From Candidatus Buchananbacteria bacterium (lineage in GTDB: Bacteria > Patescibacteriota > Patescibacteriia > 2-01-FULL-39-33), in contig JBAYFY010000002.1 of NCBI GenBank assembly GCA_041666945.1, positions 64,701-128,700 of the forward strand: 64,000 bases of DNA, written 5' to 3'. The first letter of the stretch is position 1; each line of letters starts with the position of its first letter. The position numbers were made by a program, and so were the translations under genes. The notes below the pieces were generated by a model that was given only the letters and a program-made list of their open reading frames with translations, searched no databases and was not told where the DNA came from. Shown here piece after piece: positions 5,548 to 48,505 of the stretch.

Positions 5548-5664
5548 TAAGTAACATGTAACAAGTAACATGTAACAAGTAATTAAATTAATAACAGTTT
5601 ACTTATTACGTATTACTTATTGCTTATTACTTATTACTTATTGCTTATTACTTATTACGTATTT
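5548..5664. repeat. Inverted array of GTAACA(T/A)GTAACAAG and TTACTTATT(G/A)C repeats abutting the ATG of the next gene
   Basis: Direct visual repeats. The forward units are followed by their approximate reverse complements, giving long hairpin potential. The first 15 codons of the listed ORF 5620 are just translation of this repeat. Confidence 0.7.
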
Positions 5665-8247: not shown

Positions 8248-8335
8248 AAAAGTAATACGTAATAAGTAATAAGTAAAATAGCAATAAAATAATAATTGCA
8301 TAAATTACCTGTTACATATTACGTAATTAACGTGA
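8248..8335. repeat. GTAATA(C/A)GTAATAAGTAA repeats and their inverse downstream of the VirD4-like gene
   Basis: gtaatacgtaataagtaataagtaa ... ttacctgttacatattacgtaat. It mirrors the array upstream of the gene. Confidence 0.6.
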
Positions 8336-8405: not shown

Positions 8406-10136
8406 ATGGGCAGCGCTTTATACCGCAAATACCGGCCGCAGACCTTTGCGCAAATGATCGGCCAAAACCATATCAAAATCACCCTGCAGCATCAGCTGGA
8501 AAGGGGAGAATCGGCGCACGCTTACTTGTTTTGCGGTCCGCGCGGTTTGGGCAAAACCACCAGCGCCAGGTTGTTCGCCAAATCCATTAATTGCGAGAAG
8601 CGCGTAAACGGCGAAAGCGAACCCTGCAATGCTTGCCCGTCTTGCTTGGATATCATGGCCGGCCGCAGCGTGGATATCATTGAGATTGACGCCGCCAGCA
8701 ATACGGGTGTGGATAATGTCCGCGAAAATATTATTGAGAACTCACGCTTCACGCCGGTTAAGAGCAAGTATAAGGTGTTTATTATTGATGAGGCGCACAT
8801 GTTATCTAACGCCTCGTTTAACGCCTTGCTTAAGATTATGGAGGAGCCGCCGGCGCACGTGCTGTTTATTCTATGTACGACGGAAATCCACAAACTGCCG
8901 CTGACCATTATTTCCCGCTGCCAGCGTTTTGATTTCAAGAAAGTTACAGCCGAACAATTATTGAAACGTCTGCAGCTGATTGTTGAGGGCGAGAACAAAA
9001 AGGTTGAAGAAGAAGTGCTCAAGCGCATCGTAGTGGTTTCTGAAGGATGCGTGCGCGATGCGGAAAGTTTGCTGGCCAAGATTCTGTCCTTGGGCGATGA
9101 TATCACCCTGGAACAAGCCGAGATCGTTTTGCCGCGCAGCGATTTTCAGATCATTCTTGATTTTGTGGAATACCTGGCGGAAAAAAACGCCGCCGCCGCC
9201 GTGGAGCATCTCAATCGCTTAATGGAAGAAGGCGTGGATTTGTCGGTATTTACGGAAAACCTGTTGGAATTTTTACGGCAGATGATGCTGGTTAAAGTCA
9301 ACGGCCGCTTGGCGGTTTTCGGTTTGGAATTCAATGACGATTTGGCGGAAAATATCAAGGATTTAGCTGATAAATTCAGTTTTGCCGAAATCGTGGAGAT
9401 GGTGGAGATTTTTTCCGATAAAGCCAAAGAAATCAAACAAGCGCCAATCATGCAATTTCCTTTGGAAATCGCCGTGATCAGATTAGTGGAGCGCGTCTCC
9501 TGCGCCAAGCCGGATAAAATAATTTTCGCCGCCGCATCAGCGCCGGCGGTTGCCGCCGCTCCTACTGTTCCTGCGGCCGGCAAACCGGCTGCCGTCGCCC
9601 CGAGCGTCGCCATAAAAAAAGATACGTCAACCGCTCATGATAAAACTGAAACGGCGACAGTACCGGCCAGCCGCCGGCCAGCTGCTAGTCAGCCGACCAT
9701 TGCCGCCGCTGCCAGTCAGCCGACTTTGGATCAAAATGTGTCTTTGGCCGATATCGCCGCCAACTGGGGCCAGCTTATCAATCGTCTAATCAAGACGAAT
9801 TTTTCCCTGGGATCGCTCTTGCGCATCAGTCAGCCGCTGTCTTGCGACAAAGGAGTGTTGCAGGTCGCTGTTACCAGTTTATTCTATAAGAACCGTCTGG
9901 AGACCCAAGATAACCAGAAAGTGGTAGAAGACACTTTATTGGAAGTGGCGGGGATTAATATCAGAGTCAAAGGAGTGGTGTCGCAAACCGTGGTGCCGCT
10001 GGAGGTAGCGATTGACTATGGCGAGGATTTGGCTGTGCCGTCCAATGATTTTTCACCGCCGCCGGTTCCGCCGGCTCCTGAAACCGTTCCGCCTATTCGG
10101 CTGGATCCGACAGAGGATGTGTTAGGTATGCTATAA
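8406..10136 (+). CDS. dnaX: DNA polymerase III subunit gamma/tau
   Basis: N-terminal clamp-loader AAA+ motifs (GPRGLGKTT, the zinc module CNACPSC, the SRC motif) and a Pro/Ala-rich linker. Confidence 0.9.
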   Translation: MGSALYRKYRPQTFAQMIGQNHIKITLQHQLERGESAHAYLFCGPRGLGKTTSARLFAKSINCEKRVNGESEPCNACPSCLDIMAGRSVDIIEIDAASNTGVDNVRENIIENSRFTPVKSKYKVFIIDEAHMLSNASFNALLKIMEEPPAHVLFILCTTEIHKLPLTIISRCQRFDFKKVTAEQLLKRLQLIVEGENKKVEEEVLKRIVVVSEGCVRDAESLLAKILSLGDDITLEQAEIVLPRSDFQIILDFVEYLAEKNAAAAVEHLNRLMEEGVDLSVFTENLLEFLRQMMLVKVNGRLAVFGLEFNDDLAENIKDLADKFSFAEIVEMVEIFSDKAKEIKQAPIMQFPLEIAVIRLVERVSCAKPDKIIFAAASAPAVAAAPTVPAAGKPAAVAPSVAIKKDTSTAHDKTETATVPASRRPAASQPTIAAAASQPTLDQNVSLADIAANWGQLINRLIKTNFSLGSLLRISQPLSCDKGVLQVAVTSLFYKNRLETQDNQKVVEDTLLEVAGINIRVKGVVSQTVVPLEVAIDYGEDLAVPSNDFSPPPVPPAPETVPPIRLDPTEDVLGML

Positions 10137-10144
10137 TTATAGTA

Positions 10145-10357
10145 TCGTCATTTCCGCAATTATAACATCGTCATTCCCGTAATTATAGTATCGTCATTCC
10201 CGTAACTATAATATCGTCATTCCCGTAATTATAGTATCGTCATTCCCGTAACTATAATATCGTCATTCCCGTAACTATAATATCGTCATTCCCGTAACTA
10301 TAATATCGTCATTCCCGTAACTATAATATCGTCATTCCCGCGCAGGCGGGAATCCAG
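10145..10357. repeat. Tandem array of about 8 copies of a 23-bp unit TCGTCATTCCCGTAACTATAATA, ending in a TCGTCATTCCCGCGCAGGCGGGAATCCAG palindrome
   Basis: Perfect and near-perfect direct repeats start at the dnaX stop codon. There are no unique spacers, so this is not a CRISPR array. Confidence 0.85.
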
Positions 10358-10365: not shown

Positions 10366-10490
10366 TGATCCCCGGACATTTTTTAGTTCACTATACTCGC
10401 TGGGATCTCCGGATAAATCCTCCCGCTTACGCTTACGGATTTTCCGAACCTGCCTGCCGGTAGACAGGGATGACATTAGAGGATATTGGC
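10366..10490. repeat. About 90-bp interspersed element (copy A) containing CTGCCGG(T/C)AG(A/G)CAGGGATGAC
   Basis: Aligns with 41745..41835; the shared core is GGATC(T/C)CCGGA(T/C)AAATCCTCCCGCTTACGCTTACGGATTTTCC. Confidence 0.6.
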
Positions 10491-11974: not shown

Positions 11975-12178
11975 ATGACAAAAGTCAAACTGCAATTCGT
12001 TAAGAATCTGGTTTGGGGCCTTGTGTCCGAGGGTGTCATCGCCATTTTGTTCGGCATTTTGATTATGGTTTATCCGGAATTATTGAGCATTCTGGTGGGC
12101 CTGGCCTTGATTGTTACCGGCGTGGTTTCATTGTCGCTGGCGATTAGAGCCAACAAGTATTCCTCAATTGAGTTCTAA
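11975..12178 (+). CDS. Small 2-TM membrane protein (HdeD/DUF308-like)
   Basis: 67 aa with two hydrophobic helices. No Shine-Dalgarno is visible. Confidence 0.55.
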   Translation: MTKVKLQFVKNLVWGLVSEGVIAILFGILIMVYPELLSILVGLALIVTGVVSLSLAIRANKYSSIEF

Positions 12179-12210
12179 AAAAGAACAAGAAAAATCCCGA
12201 CCAATTGGCC

Positions 12211-12640
12211 GGGATTTTTTAGTTGTCATTCCCGCATCCCTTTCGTCATTCCCGCACTCCCTTCGTCATTCCCGCACTCCCTTCGTCATTCCCGCGTACC
12301 TTGTCTGCCGGCAGGCAGGGGCGGGAATCCAGGTTATAATTTTTTTTACGATACCCCTTCGTCATTCTCACTTTCGTCATTCCCGCACTTCCTTCGTCAT
12401 TCCCGCGAAGGCGGGAATCCAGATTTCTTGTCATTCCCGCGTACCTTTCGTCATTCCCGCACTCCCTTCGTCATTCCCGCGAAGGCGGGAATCCATGCTA
12501 TCATTTTTTATGATACCTTTCTTTAGGAGAAAGGTATCACCAAAGAGTCGCGAGCGAAGCATAAATCATGGCTGGATTTTATGCTCCACCTGCCTGCCGG
12601 CAGGCAGGATTACAAAACTTTTCTGGTCACTCTCGCATAA
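12211..12640. repeat. Dense non-coding repeat field with the GTCATTCCCGC half-site and GCGGGAATCC palindromes
   Basis: Three clusters of 20-bp GTCATTCCCGC half-site repeats, each ending in a GCGGGAATCC palindrome. It also holds a perfect 12-bp-stem hairpin tgatacctttct/agaaaggtatca and CTGCCGGCAGGCAGG palindromes. The listed 195 aa ORF 12111..12698 is just translation of these repeats. Confidence 0.8.
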
Positions 12641-12694
12641 AGTCGCACAAGATTTTGTTATGCTCGCATTTTGGAATACAAATAAAGAAATAAA

Positions 12695-12727
12695 ATAAAT
12701 GCCTCGCCACATAATGCGGCGAGGCAG
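12695..12727 (-). terminator. Rho-independent terminator for the minus-strand small-gene pair
   Basis: The gcctcgcc/ggcgaggc stem is followed on the minus strand by a T-rich run. Confidence 0.5.
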
Positions 12728-12741
12728 GGAAATCAAAAGAA

Positions 12742-13038
12742 CTACGGTCTTGTGGTTGGTGCTACTATCAATACATTGAGAACTCCCGATACAGGCGGAA
12801 TGTCTTTAATCAACAGATCCGATGTCGGGTTGGTTAACCGTATAACGTGAGTTACCAACCAGTAGCGGTTATCTCTGTCTATTGGATGTAGATTGGCCAA
12901 CTTCAGTGCTCCCTCATCAAGAAAGATGATGTCGCCTTTATGGATCGGCTCTGGCCAATCCAGAAGTATCGGAAGTATCGGCGACGTACCACGACCTGTC
13001 CCTCCAAATTCTACCTGGTAAGTGTGTTTTTCTCCCAT
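12742..13038 (-). CDS. Hypothetical protein (98 aa)
   Basis: An AAAGGAG Shine-Dalgarno sits 8 nt upstream of the ATG. No recognisable domain. Confidence 0.55.
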   Translation of the reverse strand: MGEKHTYQVEFGGTGRGTSPILPILLDWPEPIHKGDIIFLDEGALKLANLHPIDRDNRYWLVTHVIRLTNPTSDLLIKDIPPVSGVLNVLIVAPTTRP

Positions 13039-13097
13039 TTTTTTTCTCCTTTCATTTAGTCGCAGAAATTACTGCGACGAGGCATTGAAGGCGCGTT

Positions 13098-13268
13098 TTA
13101 TCTTGTGACTTCCAGCGCTACCAAAATAAATTCCTTGCCGTCCCGATGGAAGGTGGTCATAGCGGTAATTCGTTTTCCCTTTCCAGGGAACATATCTGCC
13201 CATAATCCTATTTGTGAATCTAAGGTTATTGTCACTTCAAATTCTTTAACATAGATGCTTGTTTCCAT
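13098..13268 (-). CDS. Hypothetical small protein (56 aa, start METSIY)
   Basis: An AAAGGAAG Shine-Dalgarno precedes the internal ATG. It sits upstream of, and is co-oriented with, the 12742..13038 gene. Confidence 0.45.
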   Translation of the reverse strand: METSIYVKEFEVTITLDSQIGLWADMFPGKGKRITAMTTFHRDGKEFILVALEVTR

Positions 13269-13492
13269 ATTCTTCCTTTCTCTTTCTGTGTCATTAGTTT
13301 TTTTCGGCAATATGGCGCAAGCCACTGACCGTTTTTAACGTACTACATATCATCATATAATAGTATACATTAATAATTTTGTCAAGTAGTTTATCCACAA
13401 TTAAGATATTTTGTTTAATTTTAGGTATTTTTTTAAGGAAAAATCATTCCATTTTTTTATTTGTCGGAATTTTGTTATTATTAAAGAAGCTT

Positions 13493-15706
13493 ATGGTCAA
13501 ATATGTTTTACGCGCCGCTCCAATGGCCAAGGATTTTAAAATTGATTATGCCAAGGAGTTAAACGAAGATCAATACAAGGTCGTAACCGAGGGCTACGGG
13601 CCTTGTTTAGTTTTGGCCGGCGCCGGCTCGGGCAAGACGCGGACTCTGGTGTACCGCGTGGTGTATTTGTTGGAGCAAGGCGTGCCCGCTTCCAGCATAA
13701 TGCTCGTGACTTTCACCAACAAAGCGGCCAAGGAAATGTTGGAGCGCATTGAAGTGCTGCTTCACGGCGAGGCCAAGGGGTTGTGGGGTGGGACTTTCCA
13801 TCACTTGGGCAATCGGCTGTTGCGCATGTATGGCGAGCGCATTAATATCGCTAATAACTTTACGATTTTAGATGAAGAGGATTCTTTGACTTTACTCAAG
13901 AATTGTTTGAGCCGCAGTAATCCTCCGGAAGACAAATATTTTCCCAAGGCCAAAGTCATCCGCTCCATAATTTCTCTGTCGCAGAATCTGTGTCAGCCCA
14001 TCCGCGAAGTTATTGCCGCGCGTTACGATTATCTTAAAGACAGCTACTTGCCGTGTATCTTGGAAGCTGCTGATCTATACAAAGAACGCAAAACGCAAAT
14101 CAACGCGTTGGATTTTGACGACCTCCTGATCAAGTGGAACGAACTGCTGGAACAAGCGCCGGAAATAAAAAAGCGTTTGGGTGAGAAGTTCGCCTACATT
14201 TTAATTGATGAATTCCAAGACACCAACGCTTTGCAATCCAAAATCATCGCCAATCTGGCCGCGCCCCAGCGCAATATCCTGGCGGTGGGAGATGACGCCC
14301 AAAGCATCTATGGTTTTCGTGGCGCCGATGTCAACCATATTTTGGATTTTCCCAAGCAGTTCCCCGATGCTAAGATTTTACGGCTGGAGATCAACTATCG
14401 TTCCACTCCCGAGATTCTGGCTTTGGCCGATACTTCCATTAACCATAATGACGCCAAGTTTGAAAAGCATTTGAAAGCGATTCGGGCCAAGGGTGCTAAG
14501 CCGGCCGTGGCGGCTTTGACTGATAATTATCAGCAAGCGGAATTCGTCTGCCAACGGATTCTGGATTTGCAACGCGAAGATGGTTTGCCGCTTAACAGCA
14601 TGGCCGTATTATTTAGATCGCACTTCCAATGTCTGGAATTGGAAATGGAACTCAACAAGCGCAATATTCCATATCAGATGCGTGGGGGACTGCGGTTTTT
14701 TGAACAGGCGCACTTAAAAGATATCCTGGCTTACTTAAAAATCTTAGCCAACTTCCGTGACGAGGTTTCTTGGTTGCGGTTACTTAGTATGCAAGGCGGG
14801 ATTGGCGAGATGACGGCGGAAAAGATCTGGCAATGGTTAAGGCAATTTGATGGCGTTTCTTCAATTTTTTCTACATCTTCTTCCGTCATTCACGACCCCT
14901 CTTCCGTCATTCACGACCCCTCTTCCGTCATTCACGACCCCTCTTCCGTCATTCCCGCGCAGGCGGGAATCCAGCATAATAATTCAACCTGGATTCCTGA
15001 TCAAACCAGGAATGACATTTCCTTGGGCGCTAAGGCCGCCAGTGGCTGGTCGGCTTTAAAGCGCACGCTGGAAAAGATTGCGCGAATAGATAAAAATGAT
15101 TTACCGGCGCTTGTTACCGCTATTATTGATTCGGGTTATGAAAAATATTTGCAGGCCAATTATGAGAATTTTCAGGATCGGTTGGATGATTTGACGCAGT
15201 TGACAGAATTCGTCAAGTCCTATGACAGTTTGGAAAGATTTTTGGCCGATACCGCGTTGTCGGAAAACTTTCAGGGCCAATCGCGCGCGCCGCGGCCGGA
15301 GAATGGCAATGAACAAATAATCTTGTCCACCATTCATCAGGCCAAGGGCCTGGAGTGGCCGGCAGTGTTTGTGATCGGTTTGGCGGAGGGCATGTTCCCG
15401 CACGCCAAGGTTTATGACAAACCGGAGGAACTGGAGGAGGAACGCCGGTTGTTTTACGTGGCTTGCACCCGCGCCAAAGACCAGCTGTATTTGAGTTATC
15501 CATTGTTCGGCCGCGACAGCATGCTGCATCCGTCGCAATTTATTAAGGAACTGCCGAGCAAATTGTATGATCGCTGGGATGTGGAGGCGGGCGAAGACGA
15601 GGTGATTTACGTGGATGAAGAAGGGGAACGCGCGTCAGGTCCGGGCAAACGGAAGGGCATTTTGGATTTTGATCCGGAACTGGAGATTGAGGAATCGGAT
15701 TATTAA
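13493..15706 (+). CDS. UvrD/PcrA/Rep-family ATP-dependent DNA helicase (the start is uncertain: 13493 or 13523)
   Basis: Walker A AGAGSGKTRTLV, the DEFQDTN motif, and the VTRAK-like motif VACTRAKDQLYLSY. The N-terminal codons of the listed ORF overlap an AT-rich promoter region that carries a TTATCCACA box. Confidence 0.85.
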   Translation: MVKYVLRAAPMAKDFKIDYAKELNEDQYKVVTEGYGPCLVLAGAGSGKTRTLVYRVVYLLEQGVPASSIMLVTFTNKAAKEMLERIEVLLHGEAKGLWGGTFHHLGNRLLRMYGERINIANNFTILDEEDSLTLLKNCLSRSNPPEDKYFPKAKVIRSIISLSQNLCQPIREVIAARYDYLKDSYLPCILEAADLYKERKTQINALDFDDLLIKWNELLEQAPEIKKRLGEKFAYILIDEFQDTNALQSKIIANLAAPQRNILAVGDDAQSIYGFRGADVNHILDFPKQFPDAKILRLEINYRSTPEILALADTSINHNDAKFEKHLKAIRAKGAKPAVAALTDNYQQAEFVCQRILDLQREDGLPLNSMAVLFRSHFQCLELEMELNKRNIPYQMRGGLRFFEQAHLKDILAYLKILANFRDEVSWLRLLSMQGGIGEMTAEKIWQWLRQFDGVSSIFSTSSSVIHDPSSVIHDPSSVIHDPSSVIPAQAGIQHNNSTWIPDQTRNDISLGAKAASGWSALKRTLEKIARIDKNDLPALVTAIIDSGYEKYLQANYENFQDRLDDLTQLTEFVKSYDSLERFLADTALSENFQGQSRAPRPENGNEQIILSTIHQAKGLEWPAVFVIGLAEGMFPHAKVYDKPEELEEERRLFYVACTRAKDQLYLSYPLFGRDSMLHPSQFIKELPSKLYDRWDVEAGEDEVIYVDEEGERASGPGKRKGILDFDPELEIEESDY
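14872..14975 (+). repeat. In-frame MITE insertion inside the helicase coding sequence
   Basis: Three copies of the 21-bp unit cttccgtcattcacgacccct are followed by cttccgtcattcccgcgcaggcgggaatccag. It translates in frame as SSVIHDP repeated three times, then SSVIPAQAGIQ. The same palindrome family occurs in intergenic DNA. Confidence 0.8.
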
Positions 15707-15822
15707 TCCCGTCGGTTATTGACAAAATACCCCATGTTTCTTATTATATTTATATTTGCATAATGCAAATAGTATTAATAGCAACCTTGAAAAACTATCA
15801 ACTGAAATGAAAGGAGATCAAA

Positions 15823-16203
15823 ATGTCTGTTTCCAAGGGCGGCGGAAAGCGTCAGAAAAAAAAGGCCGAATGCGCGGAGATAAATTTCAGCACCGGCCGG
15901 GAAATGAGTGATTCAAAATATACGATGCGTATTTATGCGGATAAAGGTAAAAAAGACGTTCCTTTTTTTGGTTTAATTAAAACAGCCGTTGAAAATCTTT
16001 ATGATGGTCTTTTTTATGAAGGTTTTAACAATGACCCGATACGGATTGACGCTTCAAAGGTTGAAGCGATCAAAAAAATAAGAGTTACGCTTTATGCTCG
16101 TAACCCGTATGACGGCAATTGCGATTTCTATTATTTGGTTCCTTGTTTTGATCCCGCAGCTGGACGTAGCAACAAAGTCATGTTTTGTTATCGTCGGCGA
16201 TAA
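15823..16203 (+). CDS. Hypothetical protein (126 aa)
   Basis: An AAAGGAG Shine-Dalgarno sits 7 nt upstream of the ATG. Confidence 0.6.
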   Translation: MSVSKGGGKRQKKKAECAEINFSTGREMSDSKYTMRIYADKGKKDVPFFGLIKTAVENLYDGLFYEGFNNDPIRIDASKVEAIKKIRVTLYARNPYDGNCDFYYLVPCFDPAAGRSNKVMFCYRRR

Positions 16204-16262
16204 TTTCGGGCGGATCGTCTGCCGCCAGTTCGTCCAATCAGTTGTTTTGTAACCGTTCCAAT

Positions 16263-16292
16263 CCCGCGACACGATAGTTGCGGGTTTTTTGT
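16263..16292 (+). terminator. Weak hairpin with a T-run
   Basis: cccgc...gcggg followed by tttttt. Confidence 0.3.
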
Positions 16293-16311
16293 TTGCTCAA
16301 AAATAAATAAA

Positions 16312-16878
16312 ATGGTAAAATGCAGGCGTATGCTAATGCTGATTGCCGTAACTTTTTATCTGCTTTTGCCCGCTTACCTGGCCAATATGGCTCCGCCGAT
16401 ATTCGGCCGTCTGGGGTTGCTTAAGCCGCTGGCCAAGCCAATTGACGGCGGCCGCAAATGGCGGGGAGAGTATATTTTCGGTTCAGGCAAAACCTGGCGC
16501 GGGGTTGTCGCCGCTGTGGTTTTTGGCATTCTTGTCGCCGGTTTGCAGGCCTGGCTTTTCACTTATCCGGCGTTTGAAGGAATTTCCCTGGTTGATTATC
16601 CGACGGTTTGGCCGGTGTTCGGTTTTCTGGCCGGGTTAGGCGCAATCTTGGGTGACTTGGCCAAAAGCTTTTTTAAGCGGCGAGTCGGCATCGCTTCCGG
16701 CGGCGCCTGGCCGGTGTTTGACCAGTTGGATTTTATCGCGGGATTTTTTTTATTCACTTGGGGACTATCCGCTTTGTCTTGGCAAGTTGTCGCGGCCGCT
16801 TGTCTGCTTACCTTGGTGCTTCATCCCTTGACTAACGTCATCGCTTATTTATTAAAATTAAAAAAAGTTTGGTGGTAG
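16312..16878 (+). CDS. CDP-alcohol/CTP-transferase family membrane protein (CarS/DUF46-like)
   Basis: A polytopic membrane protein with GDLAKSFFKRRVGI and PVFDQLDF motifs, reminiscent of CDP-archaeol synthase-like proteins. Confidence 0.45.
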   Translation: MVKCRRMLMLIAVTFYLLLPAYLANMAPPIFGRLGLLKPLAKPIDGGRKWRGEYIFGSGKTWRGVVAAVVFGILVAGLQAWLFTYPAFEGISLVDYPTVWPVFGFLAGLGAILGDLAKSFFKRRVGIASGGAWPVFDQLDFIAGFFLFTWGLSALSWQVVAAACLLTLVLHPLTNVIAYLLKLKKVWW

Positions 16879-33412: not shown

Positions 33413-33566
33413 AGGCAATAAGTAACAGGTAACAGGTGAAAAGAAAGGGGATTGCATCCCTTTTCTTTTTTGTAATAATTATGTTATAATATAGGGGTAA
33501 TTATTTTGTCGTTTTTTTAATGTCTTTGCTTGTTACTTTATTACTCATTACTTGTTACTATCAGTA
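33413..33566. repeat. GGCAATAAGTAACAGGTAACAGG and TTACTTTATTACTCATTACTTGTTAC motif copies in the eno-gpmI intergenic region
   Basis: Members of the GTAAYAAGTAA/TTACTTATTAC family in opposite orientations, giving hairpin potential. Confidence 0.55.
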
Positions 33567-41744: not shown

Positions 41745-41835
41745 GATTATGGATCCCCGGACAAATCCTCCCGCTTACGCTTACGGATTTTCCAGGCCTA
41801 TCTGCCGGCAGGCAGGGATGACGATAAAGGATATT
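41745..41835. repeat. About 90-bp interspersed element (copy B)
   Basis: Aligns with 10366..10490 and contains CTGCCGGCAGGCAGGGATGAC. Confidence 0.6.
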
Positions 41836-42242
41836 GGTTAATAATTATTTATCCACAGCCCGACTCTTGACAATTATATTGTTTTTACGAAAATTTGTTA
41901 TATAATTTTATATTAAGGGAGGACATTAAGCGCCAAGCATTTTCAATCGCACTTTCCTAAAATTTTTTTTAGGATCACACTTAAGTGTGATTTCGAGAAT
42001 TCTTATCGCGTCTTCTCCGAGTCCCGCCCCCGTGGCGGGACTTTTAATTGGCTAATGAGCGAGCGAACCAGCGCTTCAAAGCGCTGGATTCCGAGCGAGC
42101 GACGCCAATATAGTCAAATACTGCTCGGCTTGCCGAGCTATTTAGTACGCAAGTTTCATTATCACCCTTATCACCATAGGGCTTGCCCCGAGGACTATAT
42201 TGGTTGATTTTTTTGATTAATGCTATAATTTAATTAAGCACT

Positions 42243-42664: not shown

Positions 42665-42975
42665 ATTTTCTCTTTTCTTTTTTCTACGTCACCCCCTCCT
42701 GTCATTCCCGCACCCCCTTCGTCATTCCCGCACCCTCTTTGTCATTCCCGCGTAGGCGGGAATCCAAGTTATAATTTTTTTGTCATTCCCGCACCCTTTT
42801 GTCATTCCCGCACCCTCTTTGTCATTCCCGCGAAGGCGGGAATCCAGGTTTAGAAATTTAGATTTCATTTCTGGTACCTTTCTCTATTGTCATTTCGACC
42901 GAAGCCGACGTAAACGTCGGCGCAGTGGAGAAATCGCTTGAATTAAATTAAAGGGATTCCTCCGCTACGGTCGGA
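42665..42975. repeat. Repeat field upstream of pheS with an internally deleted inverted-repeat element
   Basis: Two clusters of GTCATTCCCGC 20-bp half-site repeats, each ending in a GCGGGAATCC palindrome. At 42885..42975 there is an internally deleted element with inverted termini TTGTCATTTCGACCGAAGC...GCTACGGTCGGAATGACAA. The listed pheS ORF start lies inside it. Confidence 0.8.
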
Positions 42976-43020
42976 ATGACAAAAGGTAATTTGACTAAAC
43001 TAAAGCAAAACAGTTATAAT

Positions 43021-44109
43021 ATGAGCAATATGAAAGAAAAACTTAGCCAATTAAAGGCGCAATTCACCGAGGAATCGGCAAAGGTCAAATCAGCCAAGGA
43101 GCTGGATGATTTGGAGAACAGATTTTTGAGTCGCAAGAGCGGACTGCTGACCGGTATCATGAAGGGGATCAAGGACGTGGCCAAGGAAGAGGTGGCCGAA
43201 GTCGGCGCTTTGGCTAATGAAACCAAAGAATATATTGTTGAGGGGCTGGAAACGCTTAAGGGCAACTTGGGCGGCGCCGGCTCTTTTAATTTTGATTTTA
43301 CCGTGCCTGGCCGCAAGCCGGCGGTCGGCCATTTGCATTTGGCCACCATTGCCATTCGCGAGATTGAAAGCATCTTACAGCCGCTGGGGTTTGTCCGAGC
43401 GCGCCATCCGGACGTGGAATGGGATTATTACGCCTTTGAGACCTTGAATATGCCCGGCGATCATCCGGCGCGCGATGATTGGGAGACATTTTTCATTGAC
43501 GAAGCGCCGATTAAGATGAACTTGCCGGAAAATTCTTTAAAACTCGTCAAAGAGGGGAGACGCTTGCTCACGCCGCACACTTCCAGCATTCAGGTGCGCG
43601 AAATGGAGAAGGGTGTCCTGCCTATTCGCATGATGAATATTTCCAAATGCTATCGCCGGCAAATTGACGTGTCGCATGTGCCGATGTTCCATCAGTTTGA
43701 GGGCTTGGTGGTGGACGAGGGGATTAATATCACTCACTTAAAAGGCACGATTGATTATTTCGTCAAGAAATTTTTCGGCGAGGATCGCACGATTCGTTTG
43801 CGCCCGCATCATTTCCAATTCACGGAGCCGAGTTTTGAAGTGGATATTTCCTGCGGTTTGTGCCATGGCACGGGCAAGTTGGAAGACGGCAGTTCTTGTC
43901 GTATGTGCAAAGAGGGCTGGCTGGAACTCGCTGGCGCCGGCATGGTGCACCCCAATGTCCTTAAGGCCGGCGGCATTGATCCCAATAAGTATTCTGGTTT
44001 CGCTTTCGGCTGGGGCGTGGAGCGTTGCTACAGCATGAAGTCGGGTTTAAATATTGATGATTTGCGGTTGATGTATAAGAATGATTTGAGGTTTAATGAG
44101 CAGTTTTAA
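43021..44109 (+). CDS. pheS: Phenylalanine--tRNA ligase alpha subunit
   Basis: Class II aaRS motifs including FQFTEPSFEVD and GWGVERC. The start is set at the first ATG downstream of the repeat. Confidence 0.9.
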   Translation: MSNMKEKLSQLKAQFTEESAKVKSAKELDDLENRFLSRKSGLLTGIMKGIKDVAKEEVAEVGALANETKEYIVEGLETLKGNLGGAGSFNFDFTVPGRKPAVGHLHLATIAIREIESILQPLGFVRARHPDVEWDYYAFETLNMPGDHPARDDWETFFIDEAPIKMNLPENSLKLVKEGRRLLTPHTSSIQVREMEKGVLPIRMMNISKCYRRQIDVSHVPMFHQFEGLVVDEGINITHLKGTIDYFVKKFFGEDRTIRLRPHHFQFTEPSFEVDISCGLCHGTGKLEDGSSCRMCKEGWLELAGAGMVHPNVLKAGGIDPNKYSGFAFGWGVERCYSMKSGLNIDDLRLMYKNDLRFNEQF

Positions 44110-44202
44110 TATTAGCTTGTAGATTTTATAATTTTGCATTAATCACCCATAAAAGGTTTTGCAGATAAAAAGTAGTATAAGATTTATTAATAGTCACATT
44201 AG

Positions 44203-45150: not shown

Positions 45151-45162
45151 TTTATAAACTTA

Positions 45163-45195: not shown

Positions 45196-45663
45196 GTTGT
45201 CATTCCGACCGAAGCGTAGCGTAGTGGAGGAATCCCTTTAAAAGCACTTTATGGTTAAATATTACTACTTGTATATTATGGCTTCAGAATCCGGAACTTT
45301 ATATGTCGGGATTACAAATAATCTTGGTCGGCGAGTATGGGAACATAAAAATGAAATTATTGAGGGCTTTACTAAAAAATACGGCTGTAAGAGATTGGTT
45401 TATTATGAATACGGACAAGATGTTAATGGCGCTATCTGTAGAGAAAAACAAATTAAAAATTGGAATAGAAAAAAGAAAGAATTTTTGATAAAAACAATTA
45501 ACCCAAAATGGATTGATTTAAGCAAAGAAATGTTCGGTTTTAAAGAATTTTGAGGGATCCCTCCACTCGGCCTTGAGGCCTCGGTCGGGATGACAAGAAA
45601 AAGAAAGGCCTCGGTCGGGATGACAAGAAAAAGAAAGGCCTCGGTCGGGATGACAAGAAAACA
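45185..45663 (+). mobile_element. MITE-family element carrying a GIY-YIG nuclease gene, a putative autonomous copy, with a triplicated right end
   Basis: The left terminus GTCATTCCGACCGAAGCG...GTGGAGGAATCCC at 45185-45235 and the inverted right terminus GGGATCCCTCCAC...CCTCGGTCGGGATGAC at 45553-45596 bracket the GIY-YIG ORF. Three 30-bp tandem copies of the right terminus follow at 45577-45663. The termini match the empty element at 42885..42975. Confidence 0.5.
45251..45553 (+). CDS. GIY-YIG nuclease superfamily protein (about 100 aa)
   Basis: YYLYIMASESGTLYVGITNNLGRRVWEHK, matching the GIY, YIG, R and E motifs. Confidence 0.8.
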   Translation: MVKYYYLYIMASESGTLYVGITNNLGRRVWEHKNEIIEGFTKKYGCKRLVYYEYGQDVNGAICREKQIKNWNRKKKEFLIKTINPKWIDLSKEMFGFKEF

Positions 45664-45665
45664 AT

Positions 45666-46079: not shown

Positions 46080-46081
46080 AT

Positions 46082-48505
46082 ATGAATCTAAATATCTCTT
46101 ACAACTGGCTAAAGTCGTATGTCAAAACCAGTTTGACGCCGCAGGAATTTGCCAAACGGATTTCGCTTTCCGGACCATCAGTGGATAGAGTTCAGGAAAA
46201 AAGCACTGATTTTGGTAATGTCGTGGTCGGAAAAATGTTGGAAATCAGTAAACACCCCAATGCCGACAAATTGAATGTCGCCAAAGTTGATGTGGGCAAA
46301 AAAGAGCCGATCCAAGTGATTTTTGGACAGATGGCGGTGCTTAAAGTCGGTGACCAATTGCCGGTGGCCATTGCGCCAACAACCCTACCGAGCGGAGTAG
46401 AAATACTGGAGAGAGAGATGCGCGGAGTTAAATCGCAAGGCATGTGCTGTTTGGATAGTGAAATCGGATTATCCGACCAGGATAGAGTGACTTTTTTTCC
46501 GCCAGAAGTAAAGCCGGGAACCCCGATCGCTAAGGCGTTAAAATTAGAGGAAGACGCGATTTTGGATATTGAAATCACTTCCAATCGCCCGGACGCCATG
46601 AGCGTTATCGGTATCGCCCGAGAGGCGGCCGCGATTTTGGACGCTAAGTTTTTATATAAACAACCAAACCCCTCCCTCGCTATCCGCAAATCCGTCATTC
46701 CCGCGCACCCAGAGGCGGGAATCCATAATGCTGGATCCCCAACTAAATTGGGGATGACGAAAAAGGGATTGCCGTTATCAATAAAAATAACCGAGCCCAG
46801 GGTCTGCCCCCGCTATTCCGCGATTGTAATGACTGATGTCAAAGTCGGCGCGTCGCCTCTGTGGATGCAACAGCGTTTGCTCGCTTCGGGTTTGCGGCCG
46901 ATTAATAATTTAGTAGACATCACTAACTATATTCTACTTGAATACGGCCAGCCCATGCACGTATTTGATTACGATAAACTGCTGGGCGGGGAAATCAATG
47001 TCCGCAAAGCCAAGAAGAGTGAAAAGATTTTGGCGTTAGACGGCAAAGAATACGAATTGTCCGTCGATCAACTGGTAATCGCTGACAAGCAAAATCCGGT
47101 CGCCGTGGCCGGCGTGATGGGCGGAGAATTGTCAGCCGCTACCGCCGAGACCAAAACCATCGTGTTTGAATGCGCCAACTTCAATCCCGTTTCCGTCCGC
47201 AAGACCTCGCGCGTTTTGAATTTGCGTTCGGAGAGCTCGGCGCTCTACGAAAAGGGGATTAGTCCGGAAAATGTTACGGCCGCCATGTTGCGCGCCATTG
47301 AATTGGCCCAGCAGTTGTGCGACGCCAAGGTTGCCGGCAAATTGATTGACGAAAAATCATACAAATACAAAGATCGGGAAATAATTTTGGACTTGGAGCG
47401 GGTTGATTCTGCTTTGGGCGTCAAAATCAAACCGGCAGAAATAAAAAATAATCTGGAAGCGTTGGGCTTTAAAGTGATCGCCAAACGCGACAAGTTTAAA
47501 GTAACAATCCCTTGGTGGCGAGAGAACGACATGGAAGGCCAGCATGATTTAATTGAAGAAATCGCTCGGATGCACGGCTATCAGAATCTGCCGACGGAAT
47601 TAATGTCCGGCGCTTTGCCTCAAACCATAGCCACGGTTAATTTCGCGCTGGAGGACAAGATTAAGGACGCTCTGGTCGGTTTCGGTTTGACCGAGGTTTA
47701 CACTTATTCTTTTATTTCCGAAAAGCAAATCCTGGGCGCGGGTTTAAAATCCGCGGATCATATCAAGATCGCCAACCCTTTAAGCGCTGATTTTGAGTAC
47801 ATGCGCACCTCGCTTTTGCCCGGCGTTCTGCAGATTATCGCCGAGAATCAGGGATTTTTCCCGGCCGGCAGATTGTTTGATTTGAGCCAGGTATATTTGC
47901 CTTTGGGCGCGAATGATTTGGCTGATGAGAAATTCAAATTGCTCGCGGTTTGCTATGGCGCTGATGCTGAAGGCATGGCCGCCGATGCCAGAGGCGTTTT
48001 GGATGGCTTAATGCAGCGACTCAATATTGACAATTTGACTTTTAAAAAGAAACCGGCCGGCTCGGAAATATATGTTAATGATGTGAAGCTGGGTGAAATC
48101 AAAGTTATTGATAACAAAATTTTGTCCGCTTTCGGCATCAAGAAAGCCGTAGCCGCGGTGGAGTTGGATTTCGCCGCTGTGGCCGCGCTGGCCAAATCCG
48201 CGCCGACTTATCGGCCGATTCCCAAATTTCCGGCGATTGAGCTGGATTTGTCCATGGAGGTTGATAATGTGATTACTTTTGCCGAAGTGGCCAATGTCGC
48301 CAGCGATGCGGGAGCGCCGTTAGTGGATAAGGTTGATTTCTTGTCTGTCTATCAAGGTGAGAAATTACCGGAAGGCAAGAAAGCATTGGCCATTAGAATG
48401 GTTTATCGCGATTTGAATAAGACCCTGGAACTCGCCGAAGCGCAAATCGCGCATGATAAAGTTGTAGCGGAATTAAAAAAGAGTTATAATATAGTTGTAA
48501 GATAA
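46082..48505 (+). CDS. pheT: Phenylalanine--tRNA ligase beta subunit
   Basis: An N-terminal tRNA-binding (OB) domain, then B3/B4, B5, the class II core-like domain, and a C-terminal FDX-ACB domain. It contains an in-frame repeat insertion. Confidence 0.9.
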   Translation: MNLNISYNWLKSYVKTSLTPQEFAKRISLSGPSVDRVQEKSTDFGNVVVGKMLEISKHPNADKLNVAKVDVGKKEPIQVIFGQMAVLKVGDQLPVAIAPTTLPSGVEILEREMRGVKSQGMCCLDSEIGLSDQDRVTFFPPEVKPGTPIAKALKLEEDAILDIEITSNRPDAMSVIGIAREAAAILDAKFLYKQPNPSLAIRKSVIPAHPEAGIHNAGSPTKLGMTKKGLPLSIKITEPRVCPRYSAIVMTDVKVGASPLWMQQRLLASGLRPINNLVDITNYILLEYGQPMHVFDYDKLLGGEINVRKAKKSEKILALDGKEYELSVDQLVIADKQNPVAVAGVMGGELSAATAETKTIVFECANFNPVSVRKTSRVLNLRSESSALYEKGISPENVTAAMLRAIELAQQLCDAKVAGKLIDEKSYKYKDREIILDLERVDSALGVKIKPAEIKNNLEALGFKVIAKRDKFKVTIPWWRENDMEGQHDLIEEIARMHGYQNLPTELMSGALPQTIATVNFALEDKIKDALVGFGLTEVYTYSFISEKQILGAGLKSADHIKIANPLSADFEYMRTSLLPGVLQIIAENQGFFPAGRLFDLSQVYLPLGANDLADEKFKLLAVCYGADAEGMAADARGVLDGLMQRLNIDNLTFKKKPAGSEIYVNDVKLGEIKVIDNKILSAFGIKKAVAAVELDFAAVAALAKSAPTYRPIPKFPAIELDLSMEVDNVITFAEVANVASDAGAPLVDKVDFLSVYQGEKLPEGKKALAIRMVYRDLNKTLELAEAQIAHDKVVAELKKSYNIVVR
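46672..46765 (+). repeat. In-frame MITE insertion inside the pheT coding sequence
   Basis: ccgtcattcccgcgcacccagaggcgggaatccataatgctggatccccaactaaattggggatgacgaaaaagggat. It translates in frame as SVIPAHPEAGIHNAGSPTKLGMTKKG. Confidence 0.75.

What the first reader, a model, noticed from the sequence alone, without database searches (positions are those of the whole stretch)
14872..14975. Palindromic repeat element inserted in-frame inside the UvrD/PcrA helicase gene
Three 21-bp units (cttccgtcattcacgacccct) are followed by cttccgtcattcccgcgcaggcgggaatccag. The same ATTCCCGCGCAGGCGGGAAT palindrome family fills intergenic regions at 10145..10357 and 12211..12500. Here it sits inside the helicase ORF without breaking the reading frame, adding SSVIHDP three times, then SSVIPAQAGIQHNNSTWIP, between conserved helicase blocks. 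This parallels in-frame insertions of palindromic elements in Rickettsia (RPEs). It implies either tolerance of the insert in a surface loop or post-insertion selection for frame preservation.
Basis: seen in the sequence. Interest (0 to 1): 0.7.

Follow-up and report, generated by a model that had tools for sequence, protein, structure and literature searches.

The report
Mobile hairpin repeat inside helicase gene
A 138-base copy of a widespread hairpin DNA repeat, the 'NTS' motif first described in Neisseria, sits in frame inside a DNA-repair helicase gene of a Patescibacteria bacterium and adds a floppy 46-residue loop without breaking the protein; this kind of event is already known from Rickettsia and is seen here in a new lineage.

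Summary
Window 14879-14954 holds 3.6 perfect 21-bp units, followed by a hairpin at 14947-14974, inside an intact UvrD/PcrA gene (13493-15706).

The hairpin matches all 28 bases of the published Neisseria Transformation Sequence (NTS/dRS3). NTS is the target of the GIY-YIG single-strand nuclease SsnA.

The full insert is larger than reported: 14879-15016, 138 bp or 46 codons. It consists of three half-units, a forward NTS, a 13-nt spacer and a degenerate reverse copy, so it is an inverted doublet like a REPIN or a Rickettsia palindromic element.

The closest ortholog (85-90% identical, syntenic) and 24 others lack it. It maps to a variable loop of helicase domain 2B, and AlphaFold predicts it to be disordered.

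A second in-frame doublet sits in pheT (46693-46759). The window also encodes its own SsnA-like nuclease (45251-45553), flanked by related hairpins.

The exact NTS core occurs in at least 120 species of many phyla. It lies in frame in IleS, a Mur ligase and a methylase elsewhere, including IleS of a Rickettsia endosymbiont.

Verdict: a genuine, tolerated in-frame insertion of a known repeat family in a new host lineage. How it moves is inferred, not shown.

The parts
13493..15706 (+). UvrD/PcrA-type helicase gene (737 aa, start MVKYVL...), the host gene of the insert
   Evidence: The ORF and its translation are. Pfam gives UvrD-helicase 2.3e-76 and UvrD_C 1.5e-60. PDB 1pjr matches at 1.8e-115. 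P0001 is 100% identical. dN/dS against the sister gene is 0.04 upstream and 0.065 downstream of the insert.
14879..15016 (+). The complete in-frame insert: 138 bp = 46 codons (SSVIHDP x3, then SSVIPAQAGIQHNNSTWIPDQTRND)
   Evidence: There is a single 46-residue gap against P0002, and the block is absent from 25 of 26 orthologs. The length is a multiple of 3 and the used frame has no stop codon. AlphaFold pLDDT is below 50 for residues 452-496. The exact edges are uncertain by a few codons because the flanking linker is variable.
14879..14941 (+). Three identical 21-bp half-units (pyrimidine-rich spacer plus a variant left hairpin arm, CGTCATTCACG)
   Evidence: TRF gives period 21 with 100% matches, and the half-sites are listed. 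The same layout (half-units followed by a terminal full hairpin) occurs in the intergenic arrays here and in other phyla.
14947..14974 (+). Forward NTS hairpin CGTCATTCCCGCGCAGGCGGGAATCCAG
   Evidence: It matches the published pattern CGTCATTCCCGCGMAVGCGGGAATCYRG exactly (pattern taken from PMC11893778). It has an 8-bp stem.
14989..15017 (-). Degenerate reverse copy TGTCATTCCTGGTTTGATCAGGAATCCAG, forming an inverted doublet with the forward NTS
   Evidence: The hairpin scan and half-site list show it. In the DNA fold the terminal GTCATTCC pairs with GGAATGAC: minimum free energy -14.5 kcal/mol, z -3.4.
46693..46759 (+). Second in-frame doublet, inside pheT (46082-48505): a forward NTS-like hairpin with a long loop (46693-46726), 4 nt, then a reverse hairpin CGTCATCCCCAATTTAGTTGGGGATCCAG (46731-46759). 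It encodes SVIPAHPEAGIHNAGSPTKLGMT.
   Evidence: Sequence and translation are. It lies between the Pfam tRNA_bind and B3_4 domains. It is about 24 residues longer than the orthologs, including the sister protein P0124. The DNA fold gives z -3.9.
45251..45553 (+). ssnA-like single-domain GIY-YIG nuclease gene (100 aa)
   Evidence: Pfam GIY-YIG scores 6.5e-13. The protein is 47-57% identical to GIY-YIG genes that lie directly beside exact NTS copies in L042, L025, L087, L130, L155, L190 and L214. It has 190 homologs, many named as Patescibacteria GIY-YIG nucleases.
45198..45236 (+). Related hairpin (SRM variant TGTCATTCCGACCGAAGCGTAGCGTAGTGGAGGAATCCC) just upstream of ssnA
   Evidence: Read directly from the sequence. 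On its own it is a weak predicted hairpin.
45554..45661 (-). Reverse SRM variant abutting the ssnA stop codon, plus a 30-bp x 2.9 array of its half-units. Together with the upstream hairpin this gives an SRM-ssnA-SRM layout.
   Evidence: The sequence is. TRF gives period 30 with 100% matches. The half-sites are listed.
10134..10357 (+). Intergenic array: nine 23-bp half-units ending in an exact NTS (10330-10357)
   Evidence: Shown. The sister genome has only a 48-bp spacer at this position.
12225..12496 (+). Three intergenic arrays of 20-bp half-units, each ending in a full hairpin. One hairpin loop carries a nested second palindrome.
   Evidence: Shown.
42690..42847 (+). Two intergenic arrays (19-20-bp half-units plus a full hairpin) upstream of pheS
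   Evidence: Shown.

Best explanation
The insert is a copy of a non-autonomous hairpin repeat of the NTS/SRM family, the repeats associated with Ssn GIY-YIG single-strand DNA nucleases. It is an inverted doublet (forward NTS, 13-nt spacer, degenerate reverse copy) preceded by three locally amplified 21-bp half-units.

It entered the variable surface linker of helicase domain 2B in this Buchananbacteria lineage after the split from the sister genome. It has been kept because it does no harm:
- The NTS core has no stop codon in 5 of 6 frames.
- The total length is 138 bp (46 codons).
- The amplified unit is 21 bp (7 codons).
- The encoded peptide is a disordered loop away from the conserved helicase motifs.

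Shown here: the identity of the repeat, its absence from orthologs, its position and predicted disorder, a second in-frame copy in pheT, and an ssnA-like gene flanked by related hairpins in the same window.

Inferred:
- The resident Ssn nuclease binds the folded hairpin in single-stranded DNA and nicks a few bases 5' of it, as shown in vitro for N. meningitidis SsnA.
- Nick-induced repair or template switching at replication forks spreads the doublets and expands the half-unit arrays.
- The helicase with the insert is expressed and active.
For: **Identity**
- The hairpin is a 28/28 match to the published NTS pattern, with 3 exact NTS in the window. There are 5 SRM-pattern hits against 0.12 expected (pattern and biochemistry from PMC11893778; dRS3 pattern from PMC3898611).

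**Insertion**
- There is one clean 46-residue gap against the syntenic sister ortholog, and the block is absent from 25 of 26 orthologs.
- 40 kb of the sister genome carries no NTS, against 25 half or full sites in the window.

**Tolerance**
- The insertion point is between PcrA residues 434 and 451.
- The insert has pLDDT below 50 and no secondary structure, while the rest of the model matches apo PcrA/UvrD at TM 0.83.
- dN/dS is 0.04 before and 0.065 after the insert.

**Family behaviour**
- A second in-frame doublet lies in pheT.
- Exact NTS copies lie inside open frames whose flanks match conserved domains in other organisms: IleS (L074, and L099 from a Rickettsia endosymbiont), a Mur ligase (L015), a DNA methylase (L038) and a UvrA-like protein (L034).
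- Half-unit arrays ending in a full NTS occur in Rhodoferax, Dehalococcoidia and Nitrospirales.

**Nuclease**
- The GIY-YIG gene at 45251-45553 is flanked by inverted related hairpins.
- It is 47-57% identical to genes lying directly beside exact NTS copies.

**Orientation**
- GTCATTCCCG occurs 25 times on the + strand and never on the - strand, in a stretch with positive GC skew. This fits a strand-specific, single-strand process.

**Not an artefact**
- A second assembly is identical.
Against: - No target-site duplication is visible, and no near-identical empty-site allele was found (two metagenome scans were empty). The exact insertion edges therefore rest on a protein alignment across a variable linker.
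- The hairpins that flank the resident ssnA are a different subtype (GTCATTCCGACCG...GGAGGAATCCC) from the NTS in the helicase, and they fold weakly on their own. The cognate nuclease for the NTS subtype may be elsewhere in the genome, or absent.
- Ssn-driven mobility has not been demonstrated in any organism. The Ssn paper itself offers it only as a hypothesis.
- A different partner, a RAYT transposase, has been proposed for the same palindrome in Neisseria.
- There are no transcript, proteome or read-level data.
- The three 21-bp units are identical, so the amplification may be very recent. The low dN/dS then says little about selection since the insertion.
- The two assemblies may derive from the same reads.
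Confidence: 0.75

Rival explanations
1. The element is the same, but it is mobilised by a different enzyme. On this view the doublet is a REPIN spread by a REP-associated tyrosine transposase (RAYT, IS200/IS605-like), as proposed for the identical palindrome in Neisseria. The GIY-YIG gene would be unrelated or only a passenger.
For: Bertels and Rainey identify ATTCCCGCGCAGGCGGGAATC as the Neisseria REPIN master sequence, associated with a Group 2 RAYT. The inserts here are inverted doublets, which is the REPIN architecture.
Against: tblastn with E. coli RayT finds nothing at E<=1 in the window or at E<=0.001 in 120 viral NTS loci, and nothing at E<=1 in about 120 genomic NTS loci. ssnA-like genes sit directly beside exact NTS copies in several of those loci and occur in the window. 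The search is insensitive to divergent RAYTs, and only 64 kb of this genome was seen.
Confidence: 0.12
2. The insert is adaptive rather than neutral. The extra loop in the regulatory 2B domain, or the hairpin in the DNA or mRNA, has been recruited for a function. Possible functions are partner binding, tuning of helicase autoinhibition, an Ssn cut site that limits recombination of incoming DNA at this locus, or a transcriptional pause.
For: Other orthologs carry different repeat-like peptides at the same helicase loop (P0008, P0018, P0019) and at the same PheT loop (P0123, P0129, P0132, P0144). In Neisseria, NTS together with SsnA lowers integration of transforming DNA. Domain 2B is the regulatory domain of UvrD/PcrA/Rep (established knowledge).
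Against: The closest relative lacks the insert, and its sequence is not conserved across lineages. It is predicted to be disordered. Recurrence at the same loops is equally what a permissive site would show. The hairpin is not followed by a T-run.
Confidence: 0.08
3. It is an assembly artefact: a chimeric join or a mis-collapsed repeat created by the assembler at a multi-copy element.
For: The genome is a metagenome-assembled genome. The element is multi-copy, and ssnA homologs and repeats tend to sit on very short contigs, which suggests that they break assemblies.
Against: Both flanks are collinear parts of one gene that aligns end to end with its orthologs. The frame is preserved. Synteny on both sides matches the sister genome. 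A differently assembled 104,552-bp contig is identical. The whole insert is only 138 bp, which is shorter than or close to a read length. Only the number of 21-bp units could plausibly be wrong.
Confidence: 0.03
4. The block is native helicase sequence that arose in place by slippage, and its resemblance to the intergenic repeat is coincidental.
For: The three 21-bp units are a local tandem duplication, and the linker is length-variable among orthologs.
Against: A 28/28 match to a motif with zero chance expectation. A reverse partner is present, forming the family's typical doublet. The same element occurs in pheT and in four intergenic sites. The sister ortholog lacks it.
Confidence: 0.02

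Closest known systems
NTS / dRS3 repeats and Ssn-related motifs (SRM) with the SsnA GIY-YIG single-strand nuclease (Neisseria meningitidis and other bacteria; Nat Commun 2025, PMC11893778)
   Same: The 28-nt sequence is identical, with the same oriented flanks (CGTCAT...ATCCAG). The repeat is multi-copy and clustered. A small single-domain GIY-YIG gene flanked by inverted hairpins lies in the same genome.
   Different: The host is a Patescibacteria (CPR) bacterium, whereas the paper emphasises Pseudomonadati. The copies here sit in frame inside essential genes, and the text of that paper does not mention intragenic or in-frame copies. The arrays here are made of half-units, not full repeats separated by RS elements. 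The hairpins flanking the resident ssnA are a different subtype. The paper's degenerate SRM search pattern retrieved only the NTS-type copies here, not the other subtypes I call SRM variants.
Rickettsia palindromic elements (RPE), the 'protein-coding palindromes' (Ogata et al. 2000, 2002; reviewed in PMC2229807 and PMC10969869)
   Same: These are palindromic elements of roughly 100-150 bp with terminal inverted repeats, inserted in frame into conserved genes and absent from orthologs. The peptide is tolerated at the protein surface. PheT is a known RPE host in all Rickettsia studied (63-84 bp insert, PMC1779305), and pheT is hit here too. An element with exact NTS termini lies in frame in IleS of a Rickettsia endosymbiont.
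   Different: The phylum is different. Sequence homology to the named families RPE-1 to RPE-10 was not tested. The element here carries a tandem half-unit array. Whether the PheT insertion sites coincide is unknown.
REPIN-RAYT systems (REP doublets with a domesticated IS200/IS605-type transposase)
   Same: The repeat unit is an inverted doublet of a hairpin repeat. The same palindrome is listed as the Neisseria REPIN master sequence. The orientation bias fits a single-strand mechanism.
   Different: No RAYT-like gene was detected in the window or beside NTS copies. The associated gene is a GIY-YIG nuclease, not a Y1 transposase. REPs are classically extragenic.
Bacterial MITEs that occasionally fuse in frame (Correia/NEMIS, ERIC, BOX; PMC2229807, PMC10969869)
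   Same: These are small non-autonomous repeats with terminal inverted repeats and strong hairpin potential. They sometimes have an open frame and form in-frame fusions.
   Different: No target-site duplication or TA termini are seen here. No classical transposase-bearing parent IS was found. The candidate parent is the SRM-ssnA-SRM unit.

Membership tests
NTS / Ssn-related motif (SRM) repeats | Sequence fits CGTCATTCCCGCGMAVGCGGGAATCYRG (NTS), which includes the dRS3 core ATTCCC(N8)GGGAAT | tested here: met
   14947-14974 matches all 28 positions, and 10330 and 12395 also match.
NTS / Ssn-related motif (SRM) repeats | Hairpin-forming palindrome with non-palindromic, oriented flanks | tested here: met
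   The stem is 8 bp, with GTC 5' and CCAG 3' of the palindrome. The DNA fold of the doublet gives z -3.4.
NTS / Ssn-related motif (SRM) repeats | Multi-copy in the genome, far above chance | tested here: met
   6 full hairpins against 0 expected, 30 half-sites against 1.4 expected, and 5 SRM-pattern hits against 0.12 expected.
NTS / Ssn-related motif (SRM) repeats | Genome encodes a small single-domain GIY-YIG (ssnA-type) gene flanked by the hairpins | tested here: met
   The gene at 45251-45553 encodes 100 aa with GIY-YIG at 6.5e-13. It is flanked by inverted hairpins of a related subtype and is 47-57% identical to NTS-adjacent genes. Assignment to CDD cd10448 itself could not be checked.
NTS / Ssn-related motif (SRM) repeats | Cognate Ssn binds the hairpin as single-stranded DNA and cuts a few nucleotides upstream | not testable with these tools
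   This is a biochemical property, shown only for Neisseria and a few other homologs.
Rickettsia palindromic elements (RPE) | Palindromic element of about 100-150 bp with terminal inverted repeats | tested here: met
   The insert is 138 bp, and terminal GTCATTCC pairs with GGAATGAC. The doublet proper is only 71 bp.
Rickettsia palindromic elements (RPE) | Inserted in frame in conserved genes and absent from orthologs | tested here: met
   Shown for the helicase and for PheT.
Rickettsia palindromic elements (RPE) | Sequence homology to RPE-1 to RPE-10 consensus or HMMs | not tested
Indirect evidence is the NTS-terminated 128-bp element lying in frame in IleS of a Rickettsia endosymbiont.
Rickettsia palindromic elements (RPE) | Host is Rickettsia or another member of Rickettsiales | tested here: not met
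   The host gene product is 100% identical to a Candidatus Buchananbacteria MAG protein. The element therefore works like an RPE but is not an RPE by name.
REPIN-RAYT | Inverted doublet of a REP-type hairpin | tested here: met
   The forward and reverse copies are 13 nt apart in the helicase and 4 nt apart in pheT.
REPIN-RAYT | Cognate RAYT (Y1/HUH transposase) gene, itself flanked by the repeat | tested here: inconclusive
   tblastn with E. coli RayT gave no hit in the window or in 240 NTS loci. Only 64 kb of the genome was seen, and the search is insensitive to divergent RAYTs.
Classical MITE | Terminal inverted repeats plus a target-site duplication | tested here: inconclusive
   Terminal inverted repeats are present. 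No duplication is evident at either in-frame copy, and the edges cannot be fixed without an empty-site allele.
UvrD/PcrA/Rep SF1A helicase (host gene) | Full set of helicase domains and conserved motifs, with the fold retained | tested here: met
   Invariant GxGKT, DExQD, YRS and QAKGLE blocks are retained. The model matches 1pjr, 1qhg and 3lfu at TM 0.83.

The most novel reading that the evidence does not exclude
'Protein-coding palindromes' are not a Rickettsia peculiarity. They are a pan-prokaryotic property of one repeat superfamily: the Ssn-associated NTS/SRM hairpin doublets, of which RPEs would be a special case.

On this reading the elements are spread by nicks made by a mobile GIY-YIG single-strand nuclease. 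They repeatedly colonise the same permissive loops of essential genes in small-genome symbionts and other bacteria, for example PheT in both Rickettsia and CPR bacteria, and the 2B linker of UvrD. They also grow in place as coding minisatellites through half-unit amplification. This would make them a general source of loop insertions in proteins.
Probability: 0.3. Interest if true: 0.7.

Novelty: new member of a known kind. Interest (0 to 1): 0.5.

Why it matters
- **Links two literatures.** The finding connects the Neisseria NTS/dRS3-SsnA system (2025) with the in-frame 'selfish DNA' of Rickettsia (2000), in a third and very distant lineage, the CPR/Patescibacteria.
- **Shows breadth.** The very same 28-mer can sit inside essential genes (UvrD, PheT; elsewhere IleS, a Mur ligase, a methylase).
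- **Gives concrete test material for whether Ssn nucleases drive repeat spread.** The window holds a resident nuclease gene, several hairpin subtypes, half-unit arrays and two coding copies, all within 64 kb.
- **Has practical consequences for annotation.** Such inserts inflate protein lengths, create spurious 'VIPAQAGIQ / LDSRLRGND' peptides in databases, break assemblies and can mislead ortholog alignments in CPR genomes.
- **Does not reveal a new kind of system.**

Tried and rejected
- **Rfam.** A scan of the whole window at gathering thresholds gave no family, so there is no known structured RNA, intron or riboswitch.
- **Intein or intron.** I rejected these readings because the insert is only 46 codons, has no Rfam hit and its sequence is a DNA repeat.
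- **Empty-site or copy-number alleles.** Two scans of JGI metagenome contigs, using 24-25-mers from either side of the insert, found nothing.
- **Ortholog DNA.** DNA for the orthologs that carry other inserts at the same loops (P0008, P0123) is not held. Their repeat nature rests on the peptides only.
- **Intergenic boundaries.** A DNA alignment of the DnaX-Bac_transf spacer against the sister genome gave no usable insertion boundaries.
- **RAYT.** A RayT (RAYT) search by tblastn was negative.
- **RPE consensus sequences.** Ogata 2002 is not held, and no supplement is held for the Rickettsia PheT alignment. I could therefore not test sequence homology to the named RPE families or whether the PheT sites coincide.
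- **Literature.** A search for Patescibacteria plus palindromic in-frame repeats returned nothing.
- **Hairpins flanking ssnA.** Folded alone, they are not more stable than shuffles. I call them SRM variants because of their GTCAT...GGAATCCC frame and position, not their predicted energy, and the published degenerate SRM pattern did not pick them up.
- **A hint I did not lean on.** I considered treating the 21-bp period (a multiple of 3) as proof of selection. The intergenic 30-bp array is also a multiple of 3, so it is only a hint.
Full report
**1. The observation**

Tandem Repeats Finder reports 14879-14954 as 3.6 copies of a 21-bp unit (TCTTCCGTCATTCACGACCCC), with 100% matches and score 152. 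The last unit runs into the hairpin CGTCATTCCCGCGCAGGCGGGAATCCAG at 14947-14974.

The 26-mer GTCATTCCCGCGNAGGCGGGAATCCA occurs six times in the window, all on the + strand, against none in 100 shuffles. The half-site CGTCATTCCCG (up to 1 mismatch) occurs 30 times against 1.4 expected. The intergenic blocks at 10134-10357 and 12225-12496 are the same family.

The surrounding ORF is uninterrupted and reads ...FSTSSSVIHDPSSVIHDPSSVIHDPSSVIPAQAGIQHNNSTWIPDQTRNDISLGAKA.... It is a UvrD/PcrA helicase: Pfam UvrD-helicase 2.3e-76 and UvrD_C 1.5e-60, and PDB PcrA 1pjr at 1.8e-115. By comparison with orthologs the real start is the ATG at 13493 (737 aa). The product is 100% identical to a protein of a Candidatus Buchananbacteria MAG, a member of Patescibacteria.

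**2. It is an insert, and it is larger than reported**

I aligned 26 orthologs. The block is absent from 25 of them.

The closest ortholog, P0002, is 85-90% identical. It lies in the same DnaX - sugar transferase - helicase gene order on a 140-kb contig. The pairwise alignment has a single gap of exactly 46 residues, corresponding to window 14879-15016, which is 138 bp.

After the forward hairpin come 13 nt (cataataattcaa) and then CCTGGATTCCTGATCAAACCAGGAATGACA. That stretch is a degenerate copy of the same hairpin on the opposite strand (TGTCATTCCTGGTTTGATCAGGAATCCAG, 14989-15017).

The unit is therefore an inverted doublet preceded by three half-units. As single-stranded DNA the terminal GTCATTCC pairs with GGAATGAC (minimum free energy -14.5 kcal/mol, z -3.4). 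The flanking linker is variable among orthologs, so the edges are uncertain by a few codons. No target-site duplication is visible.

**3. Where it sits in the protein**

Against PcrA, query residues 12-439 align to PcrA 11-434 and query 499-683 to PcrA 451-647 (numbering from MAKDF). About 59 residues therefore replace 16.

From my knowledge of the PcrA and UvrD structures, which I did not compute here, this lies in domain 2B, shortly after the GIG motif (QGGIGEMT in the window protein).

An AlphaFold2 model built on the 27-sequence alignment has mean pLDDT 78.5. Residues 452-496 fall below 50 and have no secondary structure, between helices 445-453 and 503-520. The rest of the model superposes on apo PcrA (1pjr, 1qhg) and apo UvrD (3lfu) with a target-normalised TM of 0.83.

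All invariant helicase blocks are retained. dN/dS against the sister gene is 0.04 upstream and 0.065 downstream of the insert, with dS about 1.1. Both halves have therefore been under purifying selection, although the insertion may be much younger than that divergence.

**4. What the repeat is**

A full-text search for the palindrome found two relevant papers.

- Nat Commun 2025 (PMC11893778) defines the 28-nt 'Neisseria Transformation Sequence' as CGTCATTCCCGCGMAVGCGGGAATCYRG, which encompasses the older dRS3 repeat ATTCCC(N8)GGGAAT. It shows that the small GIY-YIG protein SsnA binds this hairpin only as single-stranded DNA and cuts a few nucleotides upstream. It also reports that NTS-like 'Ssn-related motifs' (SRM) flank ssnA homologs in many bacteria in an IS-like NTS-ssnA-NTS arrangement. 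The dRS3 pattern and its phage-target subtype are also given in PMC3898611.
- A bioRxiv paper lists ATTCCCGCGCAGGCGGGAATC as the Neisseria REPIN master sequence, associated with a RAYT transposase.

I implemented the published patterns. The helicase hairpin matches the NTS at all 28 positions, as do 10330-10357 and 12395-12422. The degenerate SRM pattern hits 5 times against 0.12 expected. The 40 kb available from the sister genome has no NTS.

These include Bacteroidota, Alpha-, Beta-, Gamma- and Deltaproteobacteria, Chloroflexota, Planctomycetota, Nitrospirota, Spirochaetes, Patescibacteria, Neisseria, a Rickettsia endosymbiont and a Nanoarchaeota MAG. It also occurs in at least 120 IMG/VR viral contigs.

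**5. A resident nuclease gene**

tblastn with a GIY-YIG ORF that is flanked by two NTS copies in a Sphingorhabdus locus (L042) hit window 45269-45568 at 1.5e-21.

The ORF 45251-45553 encodes 100 residues with a GIY-YIG domain (6.5e-13). It carries the GIY and YIG tyrosines and a glutamate at position 65, which I compare with Y6, Y17 and E64 of Neisseria SsnA.

It is immediately preceded by TGTCATTCCGACCGAAGCGTAGCGTAGTGGAGGAATCCC on the + strand. It is immediately followed by the reverse-strand TGTCATCCCGACCGAGGCCTCAAGGCCGAGTGGAGGGATCCC, which in turn carries a 30-bp x 2.9 array of its own half-units. This is the SRM-ssnA-SRM layout, although the hairpin subtype differs from the NTS, and on their own these two hairpins do not fold better than shuffles.

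Homologs 47-57% identical lie directly beside exact NTS copies in L025, L087, L130, L155, L190 (a perfect NTS-gene-NTS) and L214. There are 190 database homologs. Many are named GIY-YIG nucleases of Patescibacteria, and most sit on very short contigs.

E. coli RayT finds nothing in the window or in the 240 NTS-bearing loci.

**6. The survey for other in-frame copies**

*In the window.* A second doublet lies inside pheT (46082-48505). It consists of CGTCATTCCCGCGCACCCAGAGGCGGGAATCCAT, then 4 nt, then the reverse-strand CGTCATCCCCAATTTAGTTGGGGATCCAG (46693-46759). It is translated as SVIPAHPEAGIHNAGSPTKLGMT, between the tRNA_bind and B3_4 domains. Its DNA fold gives z -3.9.

PheT orthologs, including the sister genome's P0124, have about 24 fewer residues at this position. 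Four other orthologs (P0123, P0129, P0132, P0144) carry different repeat-like peptides at the same loop. In the helicase, P0008 has a different insert of about 24 residues at the same site. DNA for those orthologs is not held, so that they are repeat elements is an inference from the peptides.

*In other organisms.* Among the loci fetched for other species, exact NTS copies lie inside long open frames whose flanks match conserved domains:
- isoleucyl-tRNA synthetase in a Sphingomonadales MAG (L074) and in a Rickettsia endosymbiont (L099);
- a Mur ligase in Massilia (L015);
- an N6/N4 DNA methylase in a Nanoarchaeota MAG (L038);
- a UvrA-like protein (L034).

The Rickettsia element is 128 bp long with perfect NTS termini.

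**7. Half-unit arrays**

Every full hairpin in the window is preceded by one to nine direct copies of a pyrimidine-rich spacer plus the left arm. The periods are 19, 20, 21 and 23 bp on the + strand and 30 bp on the - strand.

The same layout occurs beside exact NTS copies in Rhodoferax (19 bp x 4), Dehalococcoidia (23 bp x 4), Nitrospirales (24 bp) and others. It is therefore a property of the family, not of this gene.

In the helicase the three units share a CCC-to-CAC change that the terminal full hairpin lacks. They are therefore copies of each other. A 21-bp period keeps the frame, so expansion in place is tolerated. The intergenic 30-bp array is also a multiple of three, so the period alone does not prove selection.

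**8. Why the frame survives**

The NTS 28-mer has no stop codon in five of six frames. The 138-bp insert is open in two of its three forward frames, and its length is a multiple of three. An insertion of this family into a coding loop therefore has a good chance of being non-disruptive, and purifying selection removes the rest.

**9. Orientation**

GTCATTCCCG occurs 25 times on the + strand and never on the - strand. GC skew is positive over most of the window. This fits a strand-specific, single-strand-dependent process. Most genes are also on the + strand, so replication and transcription cannot be separated as causes.

**10. Artefact check**

Both flanks of each insert belong to one collinear gene. 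A separately deposited assembly (ENA ERZ27249449, 104,552-bp contig, against the 212,810-bp MAG contig) is identical over 12493-16706 and 45082-49505. I had no read-level data.

**11. Mechanism, and what is shown versus inferred**

Shown:
- the identity of the repeat;
- the lineage-specific insertion;
- its position in a predicted disordered loop of domain 2B;
- the second coding copy;
- the resident ssnA-like gene flanked by related hairpins;
- the cross-phylum occurrence, including in-frame copies.

Taken from the literature: SsnA cuts folded NTS in single-stranded DNA a few bases upstream and lowers integration of NTS-bearing transforming DNA in Neisseria. An RPE insert in a Rickettsia gene was translated and roughly neutral for enzyme function (the gmk case).

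Inferred:
- The window's Ssn acts on these hairpins.
- Nick-induced repair or template switching spreads doublets and expands half-unit arrays.
- The helicase carrying the insert is made and active.

The main rival for the mobilising enzyme is a RAYT transposase. I found no such gene, but only 64 kb of the genome was visible.

**12. Comparison with what is known, and verdict**

The element works like a Rickettsia palindromic element, and by sequence it is a member of the NTS/SRM family. It is not an RPE by name, because the host differs and homology to the named RPE families was not tested. PheT is a reported RPE host in all Rickettsia studied, and pheT is hit here too. I could not test whether the sites coincide.

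In-frame palindromic inserts and NTS/SRM repeats are each already known. What is new here is their combination in a CPR bacterium, the half-unit arrays, and the direct NTS-Rickettsia link. I rate the finding a new member of a known kind, of moderate interest.

Noticed in passing
window 44203-46079: pheS (42976-44109) and pheT (46082-48505) are separated by a low-GC island (GC 0.316 over 44001-46000). The island holds an Mrr-type restriction endonuclease (44203-45150), the ssnA-like GIY-YIG gene and an unannotated ORF (45666-46079). The sister genome has two different small ORFs at this position (L122).
   Followed up: partly
window 12303-12320, 12590-12609, 10450-10474, 41815-41840: A second palindrome family, CCTGCCTGCCGGCAGGCAGG. 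One copy is nested in the loop of an NTS hairpin (12285-12328). Two copies follow GTCATCCC on the - strand and share a longer homologous tail (...GGAAAATCCGTAAGCGTAAGC). This suggests another hairpin subtype and insertion into hairpin loops.
   Followed up: partly
window 42955-42982: The pheS start codon (ATG at 42976) lies inside the right end (GGAATGACA) of a reverse-strand hairpin element. The repeat may therefore supply or overlap the translation start region.
   Followed up: no
window 5549-5663, 8250-8276, 33422-33559, 59248-59280: Short tandem arrays of 7-bp units (AAGTAAC, TTACTTA, AAGTAAT, GTAACAG, CTTATTA, GTAATAA) recur at several places. They are unrelated to the NTS family, and their meaning is unknown.
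   Followed up: no
orthologs P0008, P0018, P0019, P0073 (helicase) and P0123, P0129, P0132, P0144 (PheT): Other Patescibacteria orthologs carry different repeat-like peptides at the same two loops and elsewhere (for example GLPRSLRSLAMT, VIPAKAEIQ...PGMT, GLTPF/GPDPF, AERNEGS...WDPSQAQDD). This hints at recurrent independent insertions of hairpin repeats at permissive sites.
   Followed up: partly
loci L128-L247 (IMG/VR viral contigs): The exact NTS 25-mer is present in at least 120 viral or prophage contigs. Five of the 120 loci encode an ssnA homolog, and four of these lie directly beside an NTS, including a perfect NTS-gene-NTS in L190 (7786-8164).
   Followed up: partly
L099 1642-1769 (Rickettsia endosymbiont of Polydrusus tereticollis): A 128-bp palindromic element with perfect NTS termini lies in frame in the anticodon-binding region of IleS. 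This links the Neisseria NTS to Rickettsia-type protein-coding palindromes.
   Followed up: partly
window 63419-63438: A perfect 22-bp palindrome, TGTCATTTCAATTGAAATGACA, that shares the GTCAT...ATGAC frame of the family.
   Followed up: no
window 11975-13325: Between the sugar transferase gene and the helicase the window has about 1.5 kb that is absent from the sister genome, where the gap is 20 bp. It holds a 67-aa membrane-like ORF (weak, sub-threshold DUF3096/DUF308 Pfam hits), three NTS arrays and two - strand ORFs without Pfam hits (12742-13038, 13098-13325).
   Followed up: no
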